A DNA stretch of 64,000 nt from Gemmatimonadota bacterium (GCA_013820915.1 JACDHR010000001.1:8641-72640), one strand, 5' to 3'. Counted from the first letter of the stretch, positions 7,310 to 53,489 are shown. Notes: generated by a model not told the origin, from the sequence alone. Numbers and translations: made by a program.

Positions 7310-7744
7310 TCAGTAGCCAGGAGTATCGAAGTCCGCCAGACGGAGAATGCGCCCGTACGCGTAAGCTTTACGAAAATATCGCTCATCAGCCGTGACCAGG
7401 TTCGCCTCCGCGACGTGGAGAGCGACTGCGTGGTAGAGCGTATCGAACAGGTGATGGTTCAAGTCGGTCGCGAGGTCAACGGCGGTCTTGTATACAGCTT
7501 GGTCATCGACGATTCGACACCCCATCGCATGCAGCAGGCTCACTTTCTGCCGGGCCGTGGCTGGACTCAGCCGCGCGACCACGGCCGCCGCTTCCGCCAG
7601 CCAATGAGCAGGCTGATACAACCGTGCCCGACCGGACCTGACCTCCGCCAGCAGCCGGAACGCCTGCTCGATGTCCGGCTCAGCTTCCTGCTGTGGCACC
7701 AGCCACTTGACCACCACACTCGCATCCGCGACGATCAGCGTCAC
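7310..7744 (-). CDS. vapC: PIN-domain toxin, VapC family (copy 1)
   Basis: 144 aa. N-terminal IVADASVV (PIN acidic residue), a C-terminal acidic TADER motif. GTGA start/stop overlap with the upstream antitoxin gene. Paralog at 52828..53259. Confidence 0.85.
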   Translation of the reverse strand: MTLIVADASVVVKWLVPQQEAEPDIEQAFRLLAEVRSGRARLYQPAHWLAEAAAVVARLSPATARQKVSLLHAMGCRIVDDQAVYKTAVDLATDLNHHLFDTLYHAVALHVAEANLVTADERYFRKAYAYGRILRLADFDTPGY

Positions 7745-7974
7745 TGCCGCAGCTCGTCACGTACGGCACGGATCTCTTCCGCAGGTACCGGACGGGTTTC
7801 TGCCCGCAGCTCCAGAAGTCGGTCGATCGCCTCGGTTCGCCGCGCCGCCTCCTCCTTCTCCTCCACCGCCCGCATCATCAGCTCGGCGACGATCGCGCTC
7901 TTGTTTCGGCCTGCAAAGGCCCGGTTGAAGGCCTGCTTCACATCGTCCGGCACACTGAAGTTCATCGTAGCCAT
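7741..7974 (-). CDS. vapB: ribbon-helix-helix antitoxin, VapB-like (copy 1)
   Basis: 77 aa. N-terminal MATMNFSVPDDVKQAF...NKSAIVAELM is typical of an RHH strand-helix-helix. 4-nt overlap with vapC. Paralog at 53256..53489. Confidence 0.8.
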   Translation of the reverse strand: MATMNFSVPDDVKQAFNRAFAGRNKSAIVAELMMRAVEEKEEAARRTEAIDRLLELRAETRPVPAEEIRAVRDELRQ

Positions 7975-43500: not shown

Positions 43501-46116
43501 TCACCGAGCCATATGCATTTCCAGCTCAGCCCGATAGCGGTCCGCGTCTCCCGTTCTGCCCCACGCGTCGTATAGCTCCACGAGCGCTTCAAGCACGAAC
43601 TGTGTTCCCGGAGGACCGCCCGCGGAACGGGCGCGGCGATCGATGCCGAGCAGCACACGTTCGGCATCGCCAAACCTTCCGTGCAGGAACATCGAAGTGG
43701 CCAGGTGCGAGCTAGTTTTCAGTATGCGAATGTCCTCCGGACCCAGTTGCATCGTCCGGAACCGCTCGAGTGACTCGACGAGTAACGGCTCGGCCTCGGC
43801 ACCTCTGCCGAGAGTGTTCAAGATTCCGCCGAGGTGGGAAAGCGGGTAGGCTTTGGACGAGGAGTTCGGGTCCACCTGGTCGTAGAGAGCGATGGTTTCA
43901 CGGAAGATCGGCTCCGCGAGGTCCAGTTCGCCACGGTCCCGGTGGACGGCGGCGAGGTTGCTGAGCATTCCAAGGGCCTGCGGGTGTCGCTTCTGGACGA
44001 GTTTGTCCATGATCTCGACGGCGCGGCGCAGTAGCCGGACGCTCTCCTCCGAGTCGTCCGGTTCGACTGCGAGCGCGAGGTCGCTCAGGCTCCCCGCCAC
44101 CTCGATGCTCTCCTCGCCGAGCAGTGCTATGCGCAGCTCGAGCGCCTCGCGCATACGGTCCGGTCCACTCTCGCCGTCGAGCAACAAGGGATTGGCTTCG
44201 GAGCCATACGCAGAGATGACGAGCACGTGCGCCAGGTTCTCGCGCACATCGTCCGTCGATTCGCGGAAGATCCGGATAGCGCGCCGGTACATCGCCCTCA
44301 CCTCTTCGTTCGGAACGACGCCGCGGAAGCTGAGGGAATGGCCATAGTCTGTCAGGATTCGCCCGACGACCTGGTGGGATGGACCCGCGTGGCGTTCGGC
44401 CAGCGTGAGCGCTTCGCGATACAGGGAGTCGCTGCGCGCGGGATCGCTCCGTTGGAGCAGGAATGCGATCGCTCTCAGGTCGTCCGCATGGTCGGCGGCG
44501 TGCTCCGTTGCGACCAGGCGGCGCGCGGATACAGCATCCGTGTACAGCGCGAGCGCGCGCTCGTTCACCCCGTACTCCTGGTACACTCTCGCGATAGCCG
44601 AGAGCAGCGACGCCCTGACCGGCGGCTGCTCCACGAGGCGGACCTCGAGCCGACGAGCGGCTTCATCGAGCAACTCACGGGCGGTCACCATCCCGCCCTT
44701 GGTGACGTTGGGGCCCGAAAACGTGAAAACCTCCCGCATGAAGCCGGCGACCTGGCGAGCCTTTTCCGCCTCGACCCGCGCGCGGTCGCGCTCCCGCTCC
44801 AACGCCTGCGCGTGTAGTTGCAGGGTAGCCGAGTAGCCGATTCCGGCCAGAGAGATCAGCATCCCCGCCGCCACCGTGCCCGGGCGCCGTCTGATCAGCT
44901 TTTTCGCGCGGTAGCCCCACGTAGCGGGTCGGGCGGCAACCGGCCGGCGATCGAGGTGCCGCTCCACATCCTCGGCCAGATCCGCCGCGGACGCGTAGCG
45001 CTGTTCCGGCTCGCTCCGCAGGGCCTTGGCGACGATGGTATCGATGTCGCCGGAGAGCCGCGCGCGTAAGCGGCGGGGGTCGGTCCCGCGGCGGGTTGCG
45101 ATCACCGCCACGATGTCGCCGCCGGGCCCCGCCTCTCCCGCCTCTCCCCTCCGTCGAAGCGCCTGACTGGGGCGCTCCGGATCCTGCTCGCGGACCGCCG
45201 TCTCGAACGCCTGCGGGGAGCGGCTCTCGATCCGGTACGGCCGCCGTCCGCTCACCAACTCATAGAGCAGCAGCCCGAGCTGGTACACGTCCACGGCGGT
45301 GGTGATCGGGTCGCCGCGCACCTGCTCGGGGCTCGCGTAGGCCGGCGTCATCGGGCGGAGGCCGGTCCGCGTCAGCGGCGTGTCGCGGAGCGCCGGATCG
45401 GCGTGCAGCAGCTTGGCGATGCCGAAGTCCAGGAGCTTGGGCGTTCCGTCGCCGGTCACCAGGATGTTGGACGGCTTGATGTCGCGATGGACGATCAGTT
45501 TGCGGTGAGCGTGCTGGACCGCGCGGCAGACGGTAGCGAACAGGCGGAGACGCTCGCCGATACCGAGACGCCGCGAGTCGCAGTATTCTGTGATGGGCTC
45601 ACCCTCGACGAGTTCCATGATGAGGTACGGCCGGCCGTCGTCAGTCGCTCCGCCGTCGTAGAGGCGTGCGATGTTCGGATGGCTGAGCGACGCGAGGATT
45701 CGCCGCTCCGCGCGGAAACGCTCGAGCACATCCGCCGTGTCCAGCCCGCGACGCAGGATCTTGACGGCCAGCCGCTGCTCGAAGTCTCCACCTACGCGCT
45801 CCGCCGCGTACACGGTGCCGGTGCCGCCGCGTCCGATCGGTGCGAGGAGCCGATAGGCGCCGACTCGCCTGCCGACGTCCTCCGCGTCGCAATCGAGTTC
45901 ATCAGCGAGGGTGACGAGGAGGGCGGGGTCTTCGAGGAAATCCGGAGCGGTCTCGACTGAAGCCACCAACTCGGACGCGAGCCGAAGAAGATCCTCATCG
46001 CCGCCGCACGCCTCCCGCAAAAAGGCAGCGCGGGCGCTCGGTGCGCGGTCCAGCGCGGCGTCGAAAAGCGCGTTGACCTCGCGCCACCGATCCAGCACCA
46101 CCTTTCCCGTGGTCAT
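43501..46116 (-). CDS. Ser/Thr protein kinase with TM segment and C-terminal TPR repeats (module 2)
   Basis: ATG at 46116 (MTTGKVVLDRWREV...). GRGGTGTVY, LAVKIL, HRDIKPSNIL and DFGIAK motifs. Paralog of 37531..40422. Confidence 0.9.
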   Translation of the reverse strand: MTTGKVVLDRWREVNALFDAALDRAPSARAAFLREACGGDEDLLRLASELVASVETAPDFLEDPALLVTLADELDCDAEDVGRRVGAYRLLAPIGRGGTGTVYAAERVGGDFEQRLAVKILRRGLDTADVLERFRAERRILASLSHPNIARLYDGGATDDGRPYLIMELVEGEPITEYCDSRRLGIGERLRLFATVCRAVQHAHRKLIVHRDIKPSNILVTGDGTPKLLDFGIAKLLHADPALRDTPLTRTGLRPMTPAYASPEQVRGDPITTAVDVYQLGLLLYELVSGRRPYRIESRSPQAFETAVREQDPERPSQALRRRGEAGEAGPGGDIVAVIATRRGTDPRRLRARLSGDIDTIVAKALRSEPEQRYASAADLAEDVERHLDRRPVAARPATWGYRAKKLIRRRPGTVAAGMLISLAGIGYSATLQLHAQALERERDRARVEAEKARQVAGFMREVFTFSGPNVTKGGMVTARELLDEAARRLEVRLVEQPPVRASLLSAIARVYQEYGVNERALALYTDAVSARRLVATEHAADHADDLRAIAFLLQRSDPARSDSLYREALTLAERHAGPSHQVVGRILTDYGHSLSFRGVVPNEEVRAMYRRAIRIFRESTDDVRENLAHVLVISAYGSEANPLLLDGESGPDRMREALELRIALLGEESIEVAGSLSDLALAVEPDDSEESVRLLRRAVEIMDKLVQKRHPQALGMLSNLAAVHRDRGELDLAEPIFRETIALYDQVDPNSSSKAYPLSHLGGILNTLGRGAEAEPLLVESLERFRTMQLGPEDIRILKTSSHLATSMFLHGRFGDAERVLLGIDRRARSAGGPPGTQFVLEALVELYDAWGRTGDADRYRAELEMHMAR

Positions 46117-46181: not shown

Positions 46182-46766
46182 CTAATCCGCCTGAGGGCCG
46201 TCCCGCAGCAGGTGGTAGAGATACGCCTTGGCGCGCGTCCAGTCTCGCTCCACCGTACTGGACGAGACACCCAGCACTTCCGCCGTTTCCCCGGTACTCA
46301 GCCCGCCGAAGAAGCGGCACTCCACCACCCGCTCCAGGCGCGGATCGTGGCTGGCGAGCTGCGAAAGCGCCTCGTCGAGTTCGATCAGATCGACCGACTG
46401 CTGCTCGGACGCGACCGACCCGGGTTGCAGCGTCACGTGGATCACTTCGCCACCGCGCTTCCGGGTGCCACGTCCGCGGGCATGGTCGATCAGCACGTGG
46501 CGCATCGCCTTGGATACGAAGGCGCGAAACCGCACCGGTTCCCTCCATTCGATCTCCGGACGCTCCGAAAGTTTCAAATAGGCTTCGTGCACGAGCGCGG
46601 TGGTGACGAGCGTGTGGCCGGCTCGCTCACGCCGAAGATGCCGCCGCGCGATCTCGCGCAGCTCGTCGTAGAAAAGCGCGAAGAGCCGGTCGAACTCACC
46701 CGGGCTCAGGTCCGGGGAGGCCGCGGCCGCTGCACGCTCACCCGCGTTGTTCGGCACCACGGACAT
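46182..46766 (-). CDS. ECF-type sigma-70 family factor, kinase-associated type (module 2)
   Basis: ATG at 46766. LVHEAYLKL and ECRFFGGLSTGETAEVLGVSSSTVERDW. Paralog of 40440..41051. Confidence 0.9.
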   Translation of the reverse strand: MSVVPNNAGERAAAAASPDLSPGEFDRLFALFYDELREIARRHLRRERAGHTLVTTALVHEAYLKLSERPEIEWREPVRFRAFVSKAMRHVLIDHARGRGTRKRGGEVIHVTLQPGSVASEQQSVDLIELDEALSQLASHDPRLERVVECRFFGGLSTGETAEVLGVSSSTVERDWTRAKAYLYHLLRDGPQAD

Positions 46767-47050
46767 ACGGAGACTCCATCGAGAACGGTGGGGGGGGAGA
46801 CGCCGCGAGGCCGCGGCTGTCGAGGTGTGGGTGGTGATGGGATCGCCACGGTTTTCCCGCCTTCCAAATCGGAACCCACGCTCCGGCGGTTCCAGCGGCG
46901 TGACCCGCATTTCAGTCAAAATAATGCTACACTCTCGGGATCGCCAGAAACCGCGAATCCACTCGCATGACGGTCGCGAGCCGGAATTCCCGCCTTGTAG
47001 AATAAGTGTCGGTACGCAGCCCCCGTTTCCGTAACCGCAGGAGGATCGAG

Positions 47051-48328
47051 ATGATTTTCCAACGTCATTTAGCAGTGGTCGCAGTGGTGCTTTGTACCCT
47101 CTTCGCCCTGCCGGAAGGCGCCGATGCGCAGGTCGGCAAACGACTCCGCGAGCGCGCCAAGGAAAAGGTAGAGCAGCGCATCGAGAAGCGCGCCGATCAG
47201 GCGATGGAGAAGGCGCTGGACGGGACCGAGAACGCGATCACCTGCGTGGTCACCGACGCCGCCTGCATCGAAAAGGCGGGCAGGGAGGGACGGCAGGTGG
47301 TGGTCACCGATGCGGGGGGCAACGCGGTTGCCGGGGGCGCGAGCCCCGCGCCGGCAGCCGGCCAGCGAGCGGGTGAGGGCGCCTGGGCCAACTTCGATTT
47401 CGTGACCGGCGACCGCGCGCTCTTCGCGGAAGACTTCAGCCGGGACCGCGTGGGCAACTTCCCCCAGCGGCTGGAGCTGCGCGGCGGCAATATGGAGATC
47501 GTCGAGTGGCAGGGCAGGCGCTACCTGCGCAGCACGGCGGAGGGCTCCTTCGACGTGATCCTGCCGGAGGTGCTGCCGGAGCGCTTCACCGTCGAGTTCG
47601 ATCTTTTCGATCCCTCGTTCTGGCCCACCTTCGTATACGGGGTCGACTCACAACGTAAGCCGGAAGAGCACACTCGCGCTTTTTTCGCCTTTAATAAAGA
47701 GTCCGGCCTGGTGACCGGCAACCTCACCGTAAACCCCGCGGCCGGAAAATCCGCCGCCGAGATCGTTCCCCGCGAGAAGATGATGCGCGTCAGCATCATG
47801 GCCGACGGCAGATACATGAAAGTGTTCCTGGACGAGAACCGGATCTCCAACCTGCCATCCGCGGACTTTCCACGCAGCAACCGCATCCGCTTCGACCTGC
47901 CGTCGGGGACTTCGGCGGAAAAGCCGTTGTTGATCGGCAACCTCCGCATCGCCGCCGGTGGGACCTCGCTCTACGACGCGCTGCAGGCCGACGGGCGGGT
48001 GTCCACGCAGGGAATCCTGTTCGACACCGGCAGCGACCGGATCCGCCCGGAAAGCACGCCCACGCTGAAGGAGATTACCGGCATGCTCAAGGAGCACGGC
48101 TCGCTCCGGCTGATGATCGAGGGCCACACCGACAACGTCGGCCAGGCCGCGTCGAACCAGGCGCTCTCGGAGAAGCGTGCCGCCGCCGTCAGGGCGCACC
48201 TGGTCGGCCAGGGGATCGATGCCGCGCGGCTGCAAGCGGCAGGCAAGGGGCAGAGCGAGCCCGCCGGCTCCAACGATACGCCGGAAGGGCGCCAGAACAA
48301 CCGCCGCGTCGTGCTGGTGCGGCAGTGA
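47051..48328 (+). CDS. OmpA-family (peptidoglycan-binding C-terminal domain) exported protein
   Basis: RBS AGGAGGA and a signal peptide. C-terminal ILFDTGSDRIRPES...IEGHTDNVG...NQALSEKRA...NRRVVLV OmpA_C motif set. Confidence 0.85.
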   Translation: MIFQRHLAVVAVVLCTLFALPEGADAQVGKRLRERAKEKVEQRIEKRADQAMEKALDGTENAITCVVTDAACIEKAGREGRQVVVTDAGGNAVAGGASPAPAAGQRAGEGAWANFDFVTGDRALFAEDFSRDRVGNFPQRLELRGGNMEIVEWQGRRYLRSTAEGSFDVILPEVLPERFTVEFDLFDPSFWPTFVYGVDSQRKPEEHTRAFFAFNKESGLVTGNLTVNPAAGKSAAEIVPREKMMRVSIMADGRYMKVFLDENRISNLPSADFPRSNRIRFDLPSGTSAEKPLLIGNLRIAAGGTSLYDALQADGRVSTQGILFDTGSDRIRPESTPTLKEITGMLKEHGSLRLMIEGHTDNVGQAASNQALSEKRAAAVRAHLVGQGIDAARLQAAGKGQSEPAGSNDTPEGRQNNRRVVLVRQ

Positions 48329-48375
48329 GGCCGCACCAGCGTTTTTCGTCCATTCTCCGAACCCGGAAATCACCC

Positions 48376-49128
48376 ATGGACACACGTTGCGTCACCCTCG
48401 GCTCACTGCTCGCCGCGGCAGTTCTCGTCTCCCCCCCGTTTGTCGTGGAGGTCGTGGCACAGCAGGACCTGCGGCTCAGCGCCGCCGAAGGGAGCGTCGC
48501 CGCCCTGTCCGTGCCCCTCGATATCCGCCAGACGGAGAGCTGGAAGCGCAGCGGCGGCGAGGTTCAGTGGGACGTGCTCCTCCAGCCGACGGGCGTCGTC
48601 TCCAACCAGGGCCGCACCGCGGCAACGCTGATCCTCTACGCCGTGTCGGCCGCGGACCGTACCTCGCCGAAGCTGACCGGTCTGCGGGCGGAGAGCGGGC
48701 GCTACTCGCTGGGGTTCGCGAGCTCGGCGGAGTTGCGCGGCTGGAGCGGCCCGAAATACTGCAAGTCGACCCACTGCTGGCTGCCGATCGGCACCGCGGA
48801 TACGCCGGTGCTGATAGAGATGAAACTCCGGCCCGGCGAGCGGCTGGACGTCGGCACGGCTCGGCTCCGGAACCAGGCTGCGATCGGCGCCCTCATGGCG
48901 GCCGGCCCGGTGCACCTCGGGATCCTCGCCATGGCGGATCCGCTCGCCGACGGCACGGTTTCCCCGCTTCGCGTTGGTTTCGCGCTGTTCGACATGCCGT
49001 TGCGGCCCGAGGCATTTCCGGGCGACCACTTCTTTCCCGGCGACCACTTCTTTCCCGGCGACCACTTCTTTCCCGGCGACCACTTCTTTCCTGGCGACCA
49101 CTTCTCCTCACTCGTCTTGTCCCGATGA
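48376..49128 (+). CDS. exported hypothetical protein ending in five tandem FPGDHF repeats
   Basis: ATG at 48376 and a signal peptide (LLAAAVLVSPPFVV). The C-terminus is ...EAFPGDHFFPGDHFFPGDHFFPGDHFFPGDHFSSLVLSR. No family recognised. Confidence 0.6.
   Translation: MDTRCVTLGSLLAAAVLVSPPFVVEVVAQQDLRLSAAEGSVAALSVPLDIRQTESWKRSGGEVQWDVLLQPTGVVSNQGRTAATLILYAVSAADRTSPKLTGLRAESGRYSLGFASSAELRGWSGPKYCKSTHCWLPIGTADTPVLIEMKLRPGERLDVGTARLRNQAAIGALMAAGPVHLGILAMADPLADGTVSPLRVGFALFDMPLRPEAFPGDHFFPGDHFFPGDHFFPGDHFFPGDHFSSLVLSR
49025..49114 (+). repeat. 5 x 18-bp near-perfect tandem repeat (TTTCCCGGCGACCACTTC) encoding FPGDHF
   Basis: Units at 49025, 49043, 49061, 49079 and 49097. Units 2-4 are identical; units 1 and 5 each differ at one base. 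Confidence 0.95.
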
Positions 49129-49549
49129 AAACCACTACGACACTGCTCCTGATCCCTCGGGTCGCGTTGCTCACCGCGTGTGATTCCGAGGACAGCGACG
49201 ACCGGAGCGCGGAAAGAGACGCGCGCTGATTCGATCGATTGCCGGTACACCGCGCAGGGCGTGATCACCAGAGACGGGAAAAGCGCGGTCATCAACGTCG
49301 GAGAGTATGAGCAAGGCGGCGCGATGAAGCCGGGCAACACCGGCTCCATCTCGTACATGATCGGCGGTCGATGACACGTAAGGCTTGTTGGCGCATCCGG
49401 CACGCGCCATCGCAGGACTCAATGGTTCACCCGATCCCAAGGAGGTCCGAATGTAGAGGTGATGCGAAAACCAACGGATACACCGCCGGATCCGGTTGCG
49501 GACAACCACCGCCGACCACGACCCATCTATGCGAAAGGATGATGCACCG

Positions 49550-50023
49550 ATGAGCACGAAGAACGAACACGCCGAGCAGCAACCAGCCCAACGCAGCACA
49601 CCCGCCGGCATACCGGACCAGCCCGTAGACCGCCGGAAGTTCCTCGGCAAGAGCGCGGCCCTGGCGGCCGCGGCAACCGTCGGCGGTGCGGCAACCCTTT
49701 CGGCAAGCCCAATTCGGGCCGCGGAGTTTGCTGCCGGTGGGCGCTCCACCCCCGGTACGATGCACGTCACCTTCGAGTTCCAGTCCAGGGGCTCCTGCGA
49801 CGCCTCGCAGCTTGAAAAGCAGATCCAGGGCAACAGCCGAATTCTCGGCCGGATCGTAAACGAGCGCGCGTGCGCTGGCGATTTCGGCGAATGGCTTCGC
49901 GACGCCAGCGACGATGATGAGGTTTCTCTCCAGCGCGTCGGTTTCAACAGCGTTCCGCTCACGGGTGACCCGCGTTTACCAACTCGACCCCCCCGCAGCC
50001 CAACGACGGGGACCCCGGCCTAG
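49550..50023 (+). CDS. small Tat-signal (twin-arginine) exported protein, unknown function
   Basis: RBS AAAGGA then ATG at 49550. DRRKFLGKSAALAAAATVGGA is a canonical RR motif plus h-region. The mature part (~100 aa) has two Cys, an acidic patch and a Pro-rich tail. Confidence 0.65.
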   Translation: MSTKNEHAEQQPAQRSTPAGIPDQPVDRRKFLGKSAALAAAATVGGAATLSASPIRAAEFAAGGRSTPGTMHVTFEFQSRGSCDASQLEKQIQGNSRILGRIVNERACAGDFGEWLRDASDDDEVSLQRVGFNSVPLTGDPRLPTRPPRSPTTGTPA

Positions 50024-50151
50024 GCGATCGAGCAGCGCCGCCCGCATGCATGACGACGGGCGGATACGGGGGTGCTGGAGCCGGCTCCCGTATTCGCTCG
50101 CGACAGCCTGAACAGTTAGACACCACGTACCAGAACCAGGGACGGCAGCAC

Positions 50152-51321
50152 ATGGTCCATTCCGTGATTCTCAAATCGATCCGCGCGTGCAACCTGCGCT
50201 GCACCTACTGCTACTACATCAACGAGGACACCCCCGAATACGGGCTCACGATGTCCGACGCGTGTCTCGAGCGGGTCTACGCCTCCTATGCGGAGTACCT
50301 CCACGACAACGGTGCGCGAGGCTCTCTGGTGTGGCACGGCGGAGAACCGCTGATGCTGGGCCGGCCCCGGCTCCAGCGGCTCCTCGACCTGCAGCGCCGC
50401 TTCTTCGCGCCCGGCTCGATCGAGAACCATCTGCAAACCAACGGGCTCCTGATCACGGACGAGTGGATCGACTTCTTCAAGAGGAACGACGTCAAGGTGG
50501 GCCTCAGCCTGGACGGAACCAAGGAGGTGCACGACCGGTTCCGCGTGACCAAGGGAGGTAAGGGCAGCTATGATCTGGTCATACGTGCCATTGAGCGGTT
50601 GCGCGGACACGGGATCGAGGTCGGCGTGCTGACCGTGATGGGAAGCACACCGGATGGACGGAGGGAGTTGATGCACCTGCGTGACGAACTCCGCATACGC
50701 GGAGCCGATTTCCTCTTCCCCATCAGCAGCCACGCGCTCGCGCGGCGCTCACCACTCGATCAGAAGATCCTTTCGGAGTTCCTGCTTTCCGCCTTCCAGA
50801 CCTGGACCGAGGCCGACGATTCTTTATTCACGGTCCGCCTGTTCCGAGCGTTGATCAAGAACGCGATGGGTATGCCGCACAATTACTTCGCGAGCGGAGC
50901 GGCGAGTCTCGGTGCCGCGGTCATCGTTGAAACCGACGGGAAGGTCTGCATGGACACGGATTTCAGCGAGATCGACCGCTACGACCTCGGCAGTGAATAC
51001 CGGTTCGACTTCAGCGTGATGGACGAGGACTTCACGTTCGCGAAGGTGGACCGGGCGCTGCACGCCCGGATCGAGGAAAGACAGCTCGACCGGATCCCCG
51101 CCGACTGCCAGAGTTGCCGGATGCGCTCTGTCTGCCGAGGCGCGCACCCAGCGTCCCGGTATGATGACCGGGACCACTCCTTCGATCACCGCAGCGTTTA
51201 CTGCGAAGCGATGTACGACATCTCCGACGCCGTGGTCGAGTACCTGGTGCGGAGTGGCCACGGAGAGGACCTGGCCGACGCGGATCTACAACACGACCTG
51301 CGAACCGCGGTGCCGGCTTGA
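50152..51321 (+). CDS. radical SAM enzyme with C-terminal SPASM-like Cys cluster (peptide/protein maturase type)
   Basis: CNLRCTYC (CX3CX2C, 50188..50211), GGEPL, LQTNGLL, VETDGKVC. C-terminal CQSCRMRSVCRGAH...YC. ATG at 50152. Confidence 0.85.
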   Translation: MVHSVILKSIRACNLRCTYCYYINEDTPEYGLTMSDACLERVYASYAEYLHDNGARGSLVWHGGEPLMLGRPRLQRLLDLQRRFFAPGSIENHLQTNGLLITDEWIDFFKRNDVKVGLSLDGTKEVHDRFRVTKGGKGSYDLVIRAIERLRGHGIEVGVLTVMGSTPDGRRELMHLRDELRIRGADFLFPISSHALARRSPLDQKILSEFLLSAFQTWTEADDSLFTVRLFRALIKNAMGMPHNYFASGAASLGAAVIVETDGKVCMDTDFSEIDRYDLGSEYRFDFSVMDEDFTFAKVDRALHARIEERQLDRIPADCQSCRMRSVCRGAHPASRYDDRDHSFDHRSVYCEAMYDISDAVVEYLVRSGHGEDLADADLQHDLRTAVPA

Positions 51322-51522
51322 TATCGCTGACGGGACAGCGGCGCCTCGGCGGATCCCTGGTCGAACGCCTTTCGCGGGGAGTGTCTTCGAGCGCTGGCGA
51401 CCAGACCTTCGCCAGGCGAACCGCCCCGAAGCCGAGGCGGTGGCCCGCAGGATCGCCGCTGCTCTCTGATGTTCATGCCGGCACGCAAGCCCAAAGAACG
51501 ATTGAACCCGAAAGGCACGCCC

Positions 51523-52074
51523 ATGATGACATGCATGATCCGGATGATCGTGATCTGCGCCGCGCTCGCGGCGTGTGGCGGTGACCGCGGCAACGATTCC
51601 GGCAACCCGGGAGCGGCGGCCGCGAACGGCGTGGAGCGGACCGTCGGCTCGGAGGCTTCGGAGGCTTCCTCGTTCCATGCCACGGTGAGCGGTGCCATCG
51701 ACCGAACGCTGGAAGGAAATGGCGCGCTCGCTGGCTCCAAATACGGCCGCTACCACATCAACATGGCGTCGCGGGAGCGGCAGGGAGGGCAGCCCGTCGT
51801 GGTGATCGCCTTCGGCCGCACCGACACGAACACGCCTGCTCTCGGCACCTACGCGCTGGGGAGCGGCGACGGCTTTCGCGGAACCGTGGAGGTCTATGGC
51901 GATCCGCAGCGGGAGTTCCAGATCACCTCCGGCGAGCTCGAGATCACCGGCGCCGACGGCGACGTGCTCACGGGCCGCTTCTTCTTTTCCGCGAGCGAGA
52001 GGACCGAGGAGTACAGCAGCCAGCCCGCGGAGATCCGGGCCGAGGGAACGTTCCGTACGCGGCCGGCCGAGTGA
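51523..52074 (+). CDS. hypothetical lipoprotein
   Basis: Several ATGs at 51523-51544, then IVICAALAAC (lipobox). No family recognised. Confidence 0.55.
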   Translation: MMTCMIRMIVICAALAACGGDRGNDSGNPGAAAANGVERTVGSEASEASSFHATVSGAIDRTLEGNGALAGSKYGRYHINMASRERQGGQPVVVIAFGRTDTNTPALGTYALGSGDGFRGTVEVYGDPQREFQITSGELEITGADGDVLTGRFFFSASERTEEYSSQPAEIRAEGTFRTRPAE

Positions 52075-52149
52075 GACGCCCCGACCGGATTGCCAGCGAC
52101 CCCCGCGAACGCCGCGGCGCGGCGGCCATTCATCCCCTGGAGACGTAAA

Positions 52150-52800
52150 ATGAAACGCACCCTCATGATCCTCGCCACACTGCTGGCCGAACTGAGCGCC
52201 AGCTGCGGCGATAGCCCGGCGGGGCCCAGTGATGGGCCACCCGAAAGGGGCGGGGAACGGTTTGACATGGGGAGCGGCGGCGGCACCTTCAAACTCTTTG
52301 AAGGCAAACAAACTCGTTGAAGGCAAAGTCGAGTTCGCGATCCCCGCCGGCGCACTCCCCGGGGGAACCACCATTTCCGTCCGACAGCTAGAGGGCGCGG
52401 AACTCCCGAGCAGCCCTGCTCCGCTACCCGGTACTGCGTTCCGCTTCGAGCCGGCCGGCCTGGTATTCGCCGAGCCGGTCACCCTCACCCTTCAGTTCGA
52501 TCCCGCGCAGCTCCCCACGGAGCGCAGCCCGACTGGTCGCCCGATGGTACGCGGATCGCGTTCTCCATCGCCTCCGGAAGCGGGTGGAGGATCCAGGTGC
52601 TCACGTTGGCGACGGGCGCGGTCACGACGGTACTCAGCGACGGTGCGGTGAACTGGTATCCCGCGTGGTCGCCCGACGGTGCGTGGATCATGCACTCGAA
52701 GAACGCGACGGGCAGCAGCAGCCCGGCCGGCTCCGAGATCTGGGCGATCCGCGCCGATGGCACAGGGGCGATCCTCGTAAAGGCGGCAGCCCGGTTCTGA
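52150..52800 (+). pseudogene. disrupted lipoprotein gene (lipobox N-terminus + beta-sandwich-like segment + PD40/TolB-like WSPDG repeats) split over three frames
   Basis: Frame 1: MKRTLMILATLLAELSASC... stops at 52320. Frame 2 continues ...LVEGKVEFAIPAGALPGGTTISV.... Frame 1 resumes with DWSPDGTRIAF...YPAWSPDGAWI to 52800. A 19-bp tandem duplication (52291..52328) explains the first shift. Confidence 0.6.
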
Positions 52801-52827: not shown

Positions 52828-53259
52828 CTACATCGTTGCGGCATCGAAATCCGCCAGGCGGGTAATCTGCCCCCGCGCGTGCGCTTTCCGATAGTAGCGG
52901 TCGTCCGCCGTGACGAGCGTGGCGTCAGCCAGACTGAGCGCGACGGCGTAATAAAGCGTGTCGAAGAGGTGATGGTTCAAGCTGATCGACAGCTCGCAGG
53001 CGGTCGTGTACACTTCTGAACTCTGCGTGACGATTATCCCGAGCTCGTGCAGATCGCGAATGTCCTCCGCTGCCGTCGCAGGGCTGAGCCGGGCAACGAC
53101 CGCCGCCACCTCCGCGAGCCAATGCGGCGGCTGAATCAATTGTAGTCGCCCATTCCGGAACCCTTCCCACAAGTGAACCGCCCTCGCTGCTTGCTCCTCT
53201 CCGCGTTGCGGGAGAAGCCATTTGATCACGACGCTCGAATCCGCAACGACTACGGTCAC
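52828..53259 (-). CDS. vapC: PIN-domain toxin, VapC family (copy 2)
   Basis: 143 aa, collinear with copy 1 (VVADSSVV..KWL, HWLAEVAAVVARLSPATA, LNHHLFDTLYYAVAL, LVTADDRYYRKA). GTGA overlap with vapB-2. Confidence 0.85.
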   Translation of the reverse strand: MTVVVADSSVVIKWLLPQRGEEQAARAVHLWEGFRNGRLQLIQPPHWLAEVAAVVARLSPATAAEDIRDLHELGIIVTQSSEVYTTACELSISLNHHLFDTLYYAVALSLADATLVTADDRYYRKAHARGQITRLADFDAATM

Positions 53260-53489
53260 GCGCGCAGTTCGTCACGAACAGCCTGGATCTGTTCGCTCGT
53301 TACGGTCGGGCGCGCATCCCTTCGGGCCAGCAATCGGTCGATCGCCGCGTTCCGCTCTCGAATTTGGTCCTGTTCCTGGACCGTCCGAGCCATCAACCCG
53401 GCGATGATCGCGCTCTTGTTCCGGCCGGCGAACACTTCGTTGAAGGCCTGCTTCACCTCGTCGGGTACGCTGTAGTTCACGGTAGCCAT
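53256..53489 (-). CDS. vapB: ribbon-helix-helix antitoxin, VapB-like (copy 2)
   Basis: 77 aa, collinear with copy 1 (MATVNYSVPDEVKQAFNEVFAGRNKSAII). Confidence 0.8.
   Translation of the reverse strand: MATVNYSVPDEVKQAFNEVFAGRNKSAIIAGLMARTVQEQDQIRERNAAIDRLLARRDARPTVTSEQIQAVRDELRA

What the first reader, a model, noticed from the sequence alone, without database searches (positions are those of the whole stretch)
46767..52800. Same-strand cluster of six to seven exported-protein genes plus a radical SAM enzyme, divergent from ECF/STK module 2 and bounded by decay and a TA module
From 47051 to 52800 every gene is on the plus strand. All but one encode a signal-bearing protein: OmpA-family, FPGDHF-repeat protein, a lipoprotein-like mini-ORF, the Tat protein, a lipoprotein and a disrupted lipoprotein. 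The exception is a cytoplasmic radical SAM/SPASM enzyme. The cluster starts 284 nt from the divergent sigma-2 gene and ends at vapBC-2. Codon third positions look less GC-biased than in dnaE or sucA. These are features of an accessory islet forming one functional unit: a cell-envelope system whose component(s) are modified before export, possibly under ECF/STK control.
Basis: inference. Interest (0 to 1): 0.6.

Follow-up and report, generated by a model that had tools for sequence, protein, structure and literature searches.

The report
Tat-exported peptide with radical-SAM stapling enzyme
Inside a run of unrelated exported-protein genes sits one conserved pair: a small protein with a twin-arginine export signal, and a radical SAM enzyme that probably staples its aromatic motif before export. 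This pair is an undescribed branch of the cyclophane ("triceptide") peptide systems.

Summary
The gene layout is as described. Everything from 47051 to 52800 is on the plus strand, starts 284 nt from the ECF sigma gene and ends at vapBC. All products but the radical SAM enzyme carry an export signal.

It is not one six-kb unit. The conserved core is two genes: the 157-aa Tat-signal protein (49550-50023) and the radical SAM enzyme (50152-51321).
- The small protein belongs to a rare, unnamed family (42 representatives among 1.84 billion proteins). A member lies next to this enzyme clade in every locus where the relevant flank could be read.
- Its core is two or three tandem aromatic-x-x triplets (here FGE-WLR), the mark of triceptide precursors.
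- The enzyme's closest solved relative is the cyclophane synthase ChlB, closely followed by anaerobic sulfatase maturase.
- The Tat signal and the upstream gene order are confined to one well-supported subclade.

In that subclade an OmpA-family gene (3 of 5 readable loci) and an ECF sigma/kinase pair (3 loci) recur nearby.

The FPGDHF-repeat gene is an orphan with a variable repeat. The lipoprotein is poorly conserved, and the last gene is a pseudogene. GC3 is ordinary for this genome.

This scan has noted Tat-signal triceptide-like precursors of other families on other DNA.

The parts
43501..46116 (-). Hanks-type Ser/Thr kinase with TPR region (partner of the ECF sigma factor)
   Evidence: Pkinase and TPR Pfam hits on the 99% identical gene of L009. 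47-48% identical kinases lie next to the enzyme in L008 and L124.
46182..46766 (-). ECF sigma factor of the TIGR02999 type, divergent from the cluster
   Evidence: TIGR02999 186.5 bits (cut-off 126) and PF07638. About 12 paralogues in the genome.
47051..48328 (+). Exported OmpA-family protein: about 300-aa N-terminal domain of unknown type plus a peptidoglycan-binding OmpA domain. A recurrent neighbour of the cassette.
   Evidence: PF00691 E 1e-22. 62-63% identical C-termini lie directly upstream of the Tat precursor in L123 and L126. Also present alone in 13 of 60 relatives.
48311..48342 (+). Terminator-like hairpin (13 pairs, then TTTTCGT) over the OmpA stop codon
   Evidence: This is a consensus match only; the number of such sites in the region is no higher than in shuffles.
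48376..49128 (+). Orphan exported protein ending in five FPGDHF units (18-nt variable repeat at 49015-49105). Not a conserved part of the system.
   Evidence: Three units in the near-identical strain L009 and five in L010. No homologue in 60 relatives. Only four weak hits among 5.8 billion proteins.
49125..49374 (+). 34-aa lipobox mini-ORF (49125-49229) overlapping a 64-aa ORF in another frame (49180-49374). Possibly one small frameshifted lipoprotein gene.
   Evidence: Identical in L009 and L010. Not resolved.
49550..50023 (+). Precursor: Tat signal (RRKF, 49631-49642), leader-like strand and helices, then the core FGE-WLR-D (49883-49903)
   Evidence: TIGR01409 above cut-off. Homologues with an invariant RRxF and GEWLxD lie upstream of the enzyme in L008, L123, L125 and L126. 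Family profile hits. Core column counts. The core is predicted disordered.
50048..50107 (+). GC-rich hairpin (25 pairs) in the spacer between precursor and enzyme genes
   Evidence: A strong hairpin occupies the same spacer in all five Tat-type loci (z-scores -1.8 to -3.9). No T run follows.
50152..51321 (+). Radical SAM enzyme of the cyclophane-synthase/anSME type. CX3CX2C at 50188-50211; degenerate SPASM-like CX2CX5CX3H plus one further Cys at 51106-51204.
51469..52074 (+). 201-aa lipoprotein, poorly conserved and not linked to the cassette elsewhere
52150..52800 (+). Lipoprotein/PD40-repeat pseudogene with two frameshifts (19-nt tandem duplication at 52290-52327; second shift near 52500-52550)
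   Evidence: Weak TolB-propeller hit on the last 67 aa.
52828..53489 (-). vapC (PIN) and vapB toxin-antitoxin pair at the boundary
   Evidence: PF01850. A paralogous pair, 59-63% identical, lies on the same contig.

Best explanation
The functional core is a two-gene peptide-maturation cassette.

Shown by comparison:
- The 157-aa protein and the radical SAM enzyme are a conserved pair.
- The small protein belongs to a rare, unnamed family with a leader-like N-terminal part and a core of two or three tandem aromatic-x-(K/R/Q/E) triplets.
- In one subclade, which includes this window, the family gained an N-terminal twin-arginine signal and the gene moved from downstream to upstream of the enzyme.

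Inferred:
- The enzyme binds the leader in the cytoplasm and makes C-C cross-links from the aromatic ring to the side chain of the third residue, at FGE and/or WLR. This is the reaction of triceptide (three-residue cyclophane) synthases such as ChlB and YhhB.
- The Tat pathway, which takes finished substrates post-translationally, then exports the stapled, roughly 100-aa product to the periplasm. The signal is cut after IRA.
- The hairpin between the two genes may set the precursor-to-enzyme ratio.

More tentative:
- In this subclade the cassette is tied to an OmpA-like peptidoglycan-binding protein.
- It may be controlled by the neighbouring ECF sigma factor, which its partner kinase would activate by phosphorylation.

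The FPGDHF gene, mini-ORF, lipoprotein, pseudogene and vapBC are neighbours, not parts of the system.
For: Pairing:
- A family member lies within 0-300 nt of the enzyme gene in every locus whose relevant flank is on the contig.
- It lies downstream, without a signal, in about 15 non-redundant loci with 34-49% identical enzymes (Stappia, Sphingomonas, Palleronia; Acidobacteria and Chloroflexia MAGs).
- It lies upstream, with RRxF plus a hydrophobic stretch, in the window, L008, L123, L125 and L126, where the enzyme is 58-65% identical.
- The two groups of small proteins match profile to profile (hhalign E 2.3e-5, probability 76%). One HMM finds both.
- The Tat-type enzymes form one clade (support 100/99) nested among the others.

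Core motif (41 sequences):
- W in 39 at position -3.
- K/R/Q/E at position -1.
- W/F in 40 at position 0.
- Q/E/R/K in 39 at position +2.
- F/Y/W in 33 at position +3.

Enzyme:
- Best NCBIfam match is the cyclophane maturase YhhB (205 bits).
- Best solved sequence and fold match is ChlB (9gm3; phmmer E 8e-31; Foldseek E 1.5e-28, TM 0.80-0.83).
- No N-terminal extension precedes the CX3CX2C motif, as in the part of ChlB that aligns.

Other:
- The precursor core is predicted disordered (pLDDT below 50), with a modestly confident strand and helices before it.
- TatC is encoded in the genome.
- A hairpin occupies the spacer in 5 of 5 Tat-type loci.
- ECF sigma/kinase adjacency is seen in the window, L008 and L124. 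OmpA adjacency is seen in the window, L123 and L126.
- Kinase-paired ECF43-type sigma factors are reported to be switched on by phosphorylation (titles and abstracts listed: PMC8999054, PMC13147305; papers not opened here).
Against: - No chemistry was tested.
- The enzyme is about as close to anaerobic sulfatase maturase as to cyclophane synthases (TIGR03942 200 bits; 4k37 E 8e-23, TM 0.79-0.84). It falls below every curated NCBIfam cut-off.
- Its auxiliary-cluster region is degenerate.
- The window's own precursor has F where its four Tat-type homologues have W, and only two triplets.
- The homology between Tat and non-Tat precursors rests on shallow alignments.
- The Tat-type loci are short metagenome contigs, probably from related organisms, so shared neighbours may partly reflect shared ancestry.
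- The L008 sigma is no closer to this sigma than to its paralogues.
- A crude search for exact shared -35/-10-type word pairs upstream of the five Tat-type precursor genes found none.
- No transcript data could be obtained.
Confidence: 0.6

Rival explanations
1. One reading: all genes from 47051 to 52800 form one accessory islet and one cell-envelope system, transcribed together under ECF/kinase control.
For: - All genes are on the same strand, with short gaps and export signals throughout.
- L008 also has a run of lipoprotein and PD40 genes after the enzyme.
- OmpA and ECF sigma/kinase genes recur near the cassette.
Against: - Genes downstream of the enzyme are unrelated across L008, L104, L123 and the window.
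- The FPGDHF gene is an orphan.
- The lipoprotein has only marginal relatives.
- One member is a pseudogene.
- A terminator-like hairpin follows OmpA.
- GC3 is ordinary for the genome.
Confidence: 0.1
2. The FPGDHF-repeat tail is the substrate, or a second substrate, of the radical SAM enzyme. Repeated aromatic/His triplets resemble triceptide or His-Xaa-Ser repeat precursors.
For: - The five FPGDHF units contain F-x-x and H-x-x triplets, and the gene lies 1 kb upstream of the enzyme on the same strand.
- Known cyclophane synthases accept Phe and His motifs (PMC11499958).
Against: - No other locus with this enzyme clade has such a protein.
- The protein has no homologues.
- The repeat number varies between near-identical strains, 5 against 3.
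- In L123 and L126 the same position is a short spacer.
Confidence: 0.08
3. The pair is real, but the chemistry is not cyclophane formation. The enzyme might instead do an anSME-like oxidation, an epimerisation, or a different cross-link on the small protein.
For: - anSME scores nearly equal the cyclophane-synthase scores.
- The auxiliary-cluster motif is unusual, CX2CX5CX3H.
Against: - The only strongly conserved core feature is the periodic aromatic-x-(K/R/Q/E) pattern.
- No Cys or Ser is conserved across the family, and there is no C/S-x-P-x-R motif.
- TIGR03942 scores 200 bits against a cut-off of 349.
Confidence: 0.17
4. The small protein is a partner or chaperone of the enzyme rather than its substrate, or an unrelated Tat-exported periplasmic protein that merely travels with it.
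For: - The predicted structure is of low confidence, so a fold cannot be excluded.
- At about 100 aa the mature part is long for a peptide precursor.
Against: - An exported protein cannot serve a cytoplasmic enzyme as a permanent partner.
- Most family members are 65-160 aa, lack a signal and have the layout of a leader followed by a core.
- Adjacency is tight across several phyla.
Confidence: 0.05

Closest known systems
Triceptides: three-residue cyclophane peptides made by radical SAM enzymes (ChlA/ChlB, YhhA/YhhB, XyeA/XyeB, GrrA/GrrM, FxsA/FxsB)
   Same: - The enzyme's best sequence and fold matches are in this group.
- It has no separate recognition domain before the radical SAM core.
- The adjacent small precursor has tandem aromatic-X-X motifs whose third residue carries a long side chain, as described for triceptides (PMC11499958).
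   Different: - It passes none of the curated family cut-offs.
- The precursor family is in neither Pfam nor NCBIfam.
- The core is a single WxK/WxQ/FxQ-type block rather than spaced repeats.
- In this subclade a Tat signal precedes the leader, and no protease or transporter gene is present.
- The chemistry is untested.
Anaerobic sulfatase-maturating enzyme (anSME, TIGR03942; PDB 4k36-4k39)
   Same: Overall fold and length are the same (TM 0.79-0.84). Like this enzyme, it modifies a protein in the cytoplasm before export.
   Different: - It scores below the cut-off (200 against 349 bits).
- There is no sulfatase neighbour and no C/S-x-P-x-R motif in the partner.
- The fourth Cys of CX2CX5CX3C is replaced by His, and only one upstream Cys is present.
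Signal-peptide-bearing modified peptides noted earlier in this scan (Tat-signal Trp-x-Asn and Tyr-rich precursors beside radical SAM enzymes)
   Same: The design is the same: a cytoplasmic radical SAM enzyme next to a small precursor with a twin-arginine-type signal and no dedicated exporter (unchecked notes).
   Different: - The precursor and enzyme families are different.
- Here most relatives lack any signal and the leader is retained behind it. The signal is therefore an add-on export device rather than the recognition element.
ECF43-type sigma factors paired with Hanks-type kinases (EcfP/PknT, EcfK/PknS)
   Same: An ECF sigma gene lies next to a transmembrane Ser/Thr kinase gene, with no anti-sigma gene. 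The published pairs act through sigma phosphorylation.
   Different: The target genes here are unknown. The link to the cassette rests on neighbourhood in three loci only.

Membership tests
Triceptide / three-residue cyclophane synthase systems | Radical SAM CX3CX2C motif | tested here: met
   C13, C17 and C20 of the 389-aa protein are invariant in 20 clade members. PF04055 E 4e-19.
Triceptide / three-residue cyclophane synthase systems | Closest characterised relatives are cyclophane synthases | tested here: met
   YhhB is the top NCBIfam hit. ChlB is the top PDB hit by sequence (E 8e-31) and by fold (E 1.5e-28). anSME is close behind in all three.
Triceptide / three-residue cyclophane synthase systems | Score above the curated cut-off of a named maturase family (YhhB, FxsB, XyeB, GrrM/OscB, AmcB, DynA, DarE) | tested here: not met
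   Best is YhhB, 205 bits against a cut-off of 445. All others are also below their cut-offs.
Triceptide / three-residue cyclophane synthase systems | Adjacent precursor with aromatic-X-X motifs | tested here: met
   FGE-WLR in the window. The pattern is conserved in 41 family members. Adjacency holds in all readable loci.
Triceptide / three-residue cyclophane synthase systems | C-C bond from the aromatic ring to C-beta of residue 3 | not testable with these tools
   Needs co-expression followed by MS/MS and NMR.
Anaerobic sulfatase-maturating enzymes | TIGR03942 score above cut-off, and a sulfatase substrate with C/S-x-P-x-R | tested here: not met
   199.7 bits against 349.45. No sulfatase was found among the cluster ORFs scanned. 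The motif is absent from the partner protein (sequence, read by eye).
SPASM domain | Seven-Cys motif including CX2CX5CX3C | tested here: not met
   The region reads CX2CX5CX3H, with one later and one earlier Cys. PF13186 does not hit at E <= 0.01. ChlB aligns with Ser at the same position.
Tat substrates | Twin-arginine motif followed by a hydrophobic region | tested here: met
   TIGR01409 20.0 bits against 16.7. RRxF is invariant in five homologues.
Tat substrates | Tat machinery present in the genome | tested here: met
   TatC PF00902, 209 bits, on contig C212.
Tat substrates | Export depends on Tat | not testable with these tools
   Needs a reporter fusion and a tat mutant.
ECF sigma / Ser-Thr kinase module (ECF43-like) | ECF sigma gene next to a Hanks-type kinase gene, with no anti-sigma gene | tested here: met
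   TIGR02999 above cut-off. Pkinase hit on the adjacent gene.
ECF sigma / Ser-Thr kinase module (ECF43-like) | The module controls the cassette | tested here: inconclusive
   Adjacency in three loci, in two arrangements. A crude exact-word search found no shared upstream motif.

The most novel reading that the evidence does not exclude
A peptide-natural-product type of modification has been taken over for one of the cell's own envelope components. On this reading, a radical-SAM-stapled mini-protein of about 100 aa is exported by Tat with its leader still attached. It works in the periplasm together with an OmpA-like peptidoglycan-binding protein, and is switched on by a kinase-activated ECF sigma factor as part of an envelope stress or signalling response.
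Probability: 0.2. Interest if true: 0.75.

Novelty: new variant of a known kind. Interest (0 to 1): 0.55.

Why it matters
- It defines a new precursor/enzyme family in the cyclophane-peptide field. The substrate motif, W-x-(K/R/Q) followed by (W/F)-x-(Q/E), is clearly predicted and easy to test by co-expression.
- It gives a natural before-and-after case. The same leader and core occur with and without a Tat signal, so the signal is an export device added to an existing system.
- This bears on how modified peptides that lack dedicated transporters leave the cell, and on whether Tat accepts cross-linked substrates.
- The recurrent ECF sigma/kinase and OmpA neighbours suggest a physiological role in the envelope rather than an antibiotic role.
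- For annotation, the 47-53 kb run should not be treated as one system.

Tried and rejected
- The first scan of species genomes, with the whole-enzyme alignment, returned only generic anSME-like hits at 25-32% identity because its patterns were generic. Repeating it with the C-terminal alignment worked.
- A word-based search with the Tat protein found only its 98% twin. The family appeared only through gene neighbourhoods and a profile search.
- A crude search for shared exact -35/-10-type word pairs upstream of five Tat-type precursor genes found nothing.
- Rfam found nothing between 46000 and 54000.
- Orthology of the L008 sigma with this sigma could not be shown. It is 48% identical, while the genome's own paralogues are 50-61% identical.
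- The structure prediction of the precursor was of low confidence (pLDDT 55) and was not used for fold searches.
- One look-up (P0045) was not on record.
- Cluster look-ups gave no organism names. Taxonomy was instead inferred from fumC, whose best named hits (82%) are Longimicrobiaceae MAGs.
- Literature searches found no paper combining radical SAM, twin-arginine, precursor peptide and RiPP. None combined cyclophane with Stappia either.

Full report
**Setting**

The window is contig C231 of a 4.79-Mb, 676-contig metagenome-assembled genome. It is 86.6% complete with 66.6% G+C. Its fumC gene is 82% identical to Longimicrobiaceae/Longimicrobium MAGs. An earlier scan note also calls it soil Gemmatimonadota.

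**Observation**

ORF listing, frame-specific GC and family searches confirm this layout:
- Kinase 43501-46116 (-) and ECF sigma 46182-46766 (-).
- A 284-nt gap.
- OmpA-family gene 47051-48328.
- FPGDHF-repeat gene 48376-49128. Its 18-nt x 5.1 tandem repeat lies at 49015-49105.
- A 34-aa lipobox ORF at 49125-49229, overlapping the previous stop codon.
- Tat-signal protein 49550-50023.
- Radical SAM enzyme 50152-51321. The database call and the homologues support this start rather than 50050.
- Lipoprotein 51469-52074.
- A broken lipoprotein/PD40 gene at 52150-52800.
- vapC/vapB 52828-53489 (-).

The pseudogene switches frame twice. The first switch coincides with a 19-nt tandem duplication at 52290-52327.

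GC3 of the cluster genes is 0.75-0.86. The genome median over 1763 long ORFs is 0.83, so the cluster is compositionally ordinary.

**What is conserved**

The enzyme and the Tat protein have no close homologue in 60 relatives of the same order. The enzyme search gave only 28-32% identical paralogues, and the Tat-protein search gave one weak match at E 3e-5.

Among 5.8 billion proteins the enzyme has about 60 relatives at 40-65% identity, then a drop to about 30%. A specific pattern scan found the clade in only about 9 of 185,579 species genomes. These are Stappia, Sphingomonas, Palleronia, and Acidobacteria, Chloroflexia and alphaproteobacterial MAGs. It also found 12 metagenome contigs.

In every locus whose relevant flank is on the contig, a small ORF of one family lies beside the enzyme gene. 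The family shares:
- a leader-like "T-I-E-V-T...L-D-L-x-G-L" strand followed by helices;
- an aromatic core;
- often a C-terminal "T-E-E-x-T-x-R-Y-x-V" tail.

A profile search of 1.84 billion representatives found only 42 members. None matches Pfam or NCBIfam.

Column counts over 41 sequences give W (39) - x - K/R/Q/E - W/F (40) - x - Q/E/R/K (39) - F/Y/W (33) - x - Q. This is two or three tandem aromatic-X-X triplets.

**The Tat variant**

Where the enzyme is 34-49% identical to ours, the precursor is downstream and has no signal.

Where it is 58-65% identical (window/L009/L010, L008, L123, L125, L126), the precursor is upstream. It then carries RRxF plus a hydrophobic stretch ahead of the retained leader, and the core reads (W/F)GE-WL(R/Q)-D. 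L124 (57%) also belongs to this clade, but its upstream flank is too short to show a precursor.

The two precursor groups match profile to profile at E 2.3e-5. A maximum-likelihood tree of 65 enzymes places all Tat-type loci in one clade (100/99), nested among the others. One origin of the signal and of the gene-order switch is therefore the simplest reading.

TatC is present in the genome.

All five Tat-type loci have a strong GC-rich hairpin in the spacer between precursor and enzyme genes. In the window it lies at 50048-50107.

**The enzyme**

- Best NCBIfam hits are YhhB cyclophane maturase (205 bits), anSME (200), FxsB (174) and DynA (163). All are below their cut-offs.
- The best solved relative is the multiple cyclophane synthase ChlB (9gm3, E 8e-31), followed by anSME.
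- A confident model (pLDDT 92.7) again ranks ChlB first (E 1.5e-28, TM 0.80-0.83) and anSME second.
- The C-terminal domain has CX2CX5CX3H, one later Cys and one earlier Cys. It gives no PF13186 hit. ChlB aligns with Ser at the His position.
- The precursor model is poor (pLDDT 55). The core is below 50, as expected for a flexible substrate segment.

**Neighbours**

- An OmpA-family gene, 62-63% identical over its C-terminal domain, lies 100-173 nt upstream of the Tat precursor in L123 and L126. In the window the same interval is 1.2 kb and holds the FPGDHF gene and the mini-ORF. L008 and L125 have no OmpA gene there.
- The OmpA homologue also occurs in 13 of 60 relatives. In the five loci examined there, neither a sigma gene nor the enzyme lies beside it.
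- An ECF sigma/kinase pair lies divergently upstream in the window and in L008, and downstream on the same strand in L124.
- With about 12 such sigma genes in 4.8 Mb, chance adjacency within 3 kb is roughly 2-3% per locus by my estimate. The loci may share ancestry, however, and orthology of the sigma genes is unresolved.
- The FPGDHF protein is an orphan. Its repeat number differs between near-identical strains, 5 against 3.
- The lipoprotein has only marginal matches.
- Genes downstream of the enzyme differ in every locus.
- A terminator-like hairpin overlaps the OmpA stop codon.

**Interpretation**

The best reading is a triceptide-like cassette. Its precursor is stapled in the cytoplasm at FGE and/or WLR and then exported by Tat. 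OmpA and the ECF sigma/kinase pair are possible functional partners in this subclade. The remaining genes are bystanders.

The pairing and the Tat add-on are shown by comparison. The cross-link chemistry, the export and the regulation are inferred.

In the open-access library searched, no paper combined radical SAM, twin-arginine, precursor peptide and RiPP. Known triceptide motifs and enzymes are as described in PMC11499958. ChlB is cited in PMC12912966.

This scan has already noted Tat-signal triceptide-like precursors of other families in other genomes. The general design is therefore not new to the scan, but this family and its signal-less relatives are.

Noticed in passing
window 49015-49105; L009 5610-6326; L010 50-283: The 18-nt FPGDHF repeat has 5 units in the window and in L010, but 3 in L009, a contig otherwise 94-100% identical. 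It is a live variable-number repeat at the C-terminus of an orphan exported protein.
   Followed up: partly
window 49125-49374: The 34-aa lipobox ORF and an overlapping 64-aa ORF in another frame (GC3 0.78) may be one small lipoprotein gene split by a frameshift. Both are identical in L009 and L010.
   Followed up: no
G000 contig C323:514-1638 (L002): The genome holds a second radical SAM enzyme of the same broad type, 31-32% identical. Its context was not examined, and it could be the true sulfatase maturase.
   Followed up: no
L094 6218-6694, L100 4485-4928, L097 2683-3129, L105 663-1094: One precursor subfamily (core W-V-W-C-Q-W-L-Q) carries a second, duplicated copy of the leader-like module at its N-terminus. 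In L094 an animal-haem-peroxidase-family gene follows the pair.
   Followed up: no
protein P0160 (650 aa): A 650-aa protein matches the precursor profile in five separate stretches (E 5e-4). It may be a multi-domain or repeat relative, or it may be noise.
   Followed up: no
G000 contig C139:2608-7700: Another ECF sigma/kinase module of this genome is followed by a PD40-repeat protein, 36% identical to the PD40 lipoprotein downstream of the enzyme in L008. PD40 lipoproteins may be common companions of these modules.
   Followed up: no
window 52828-53489 and about 7325-7974 (C231:15965-16614): Two vapBC pairs lie on the same contig, 59% (VapC) and 63% (VapB) identical.
   Followed up: no
L123 2164-3318: Downstream of the enzyme in L123 is a 384-aa exported protein with a Cys-rich C-terminus. 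It has no counterpart in the window.
   Followed up: no
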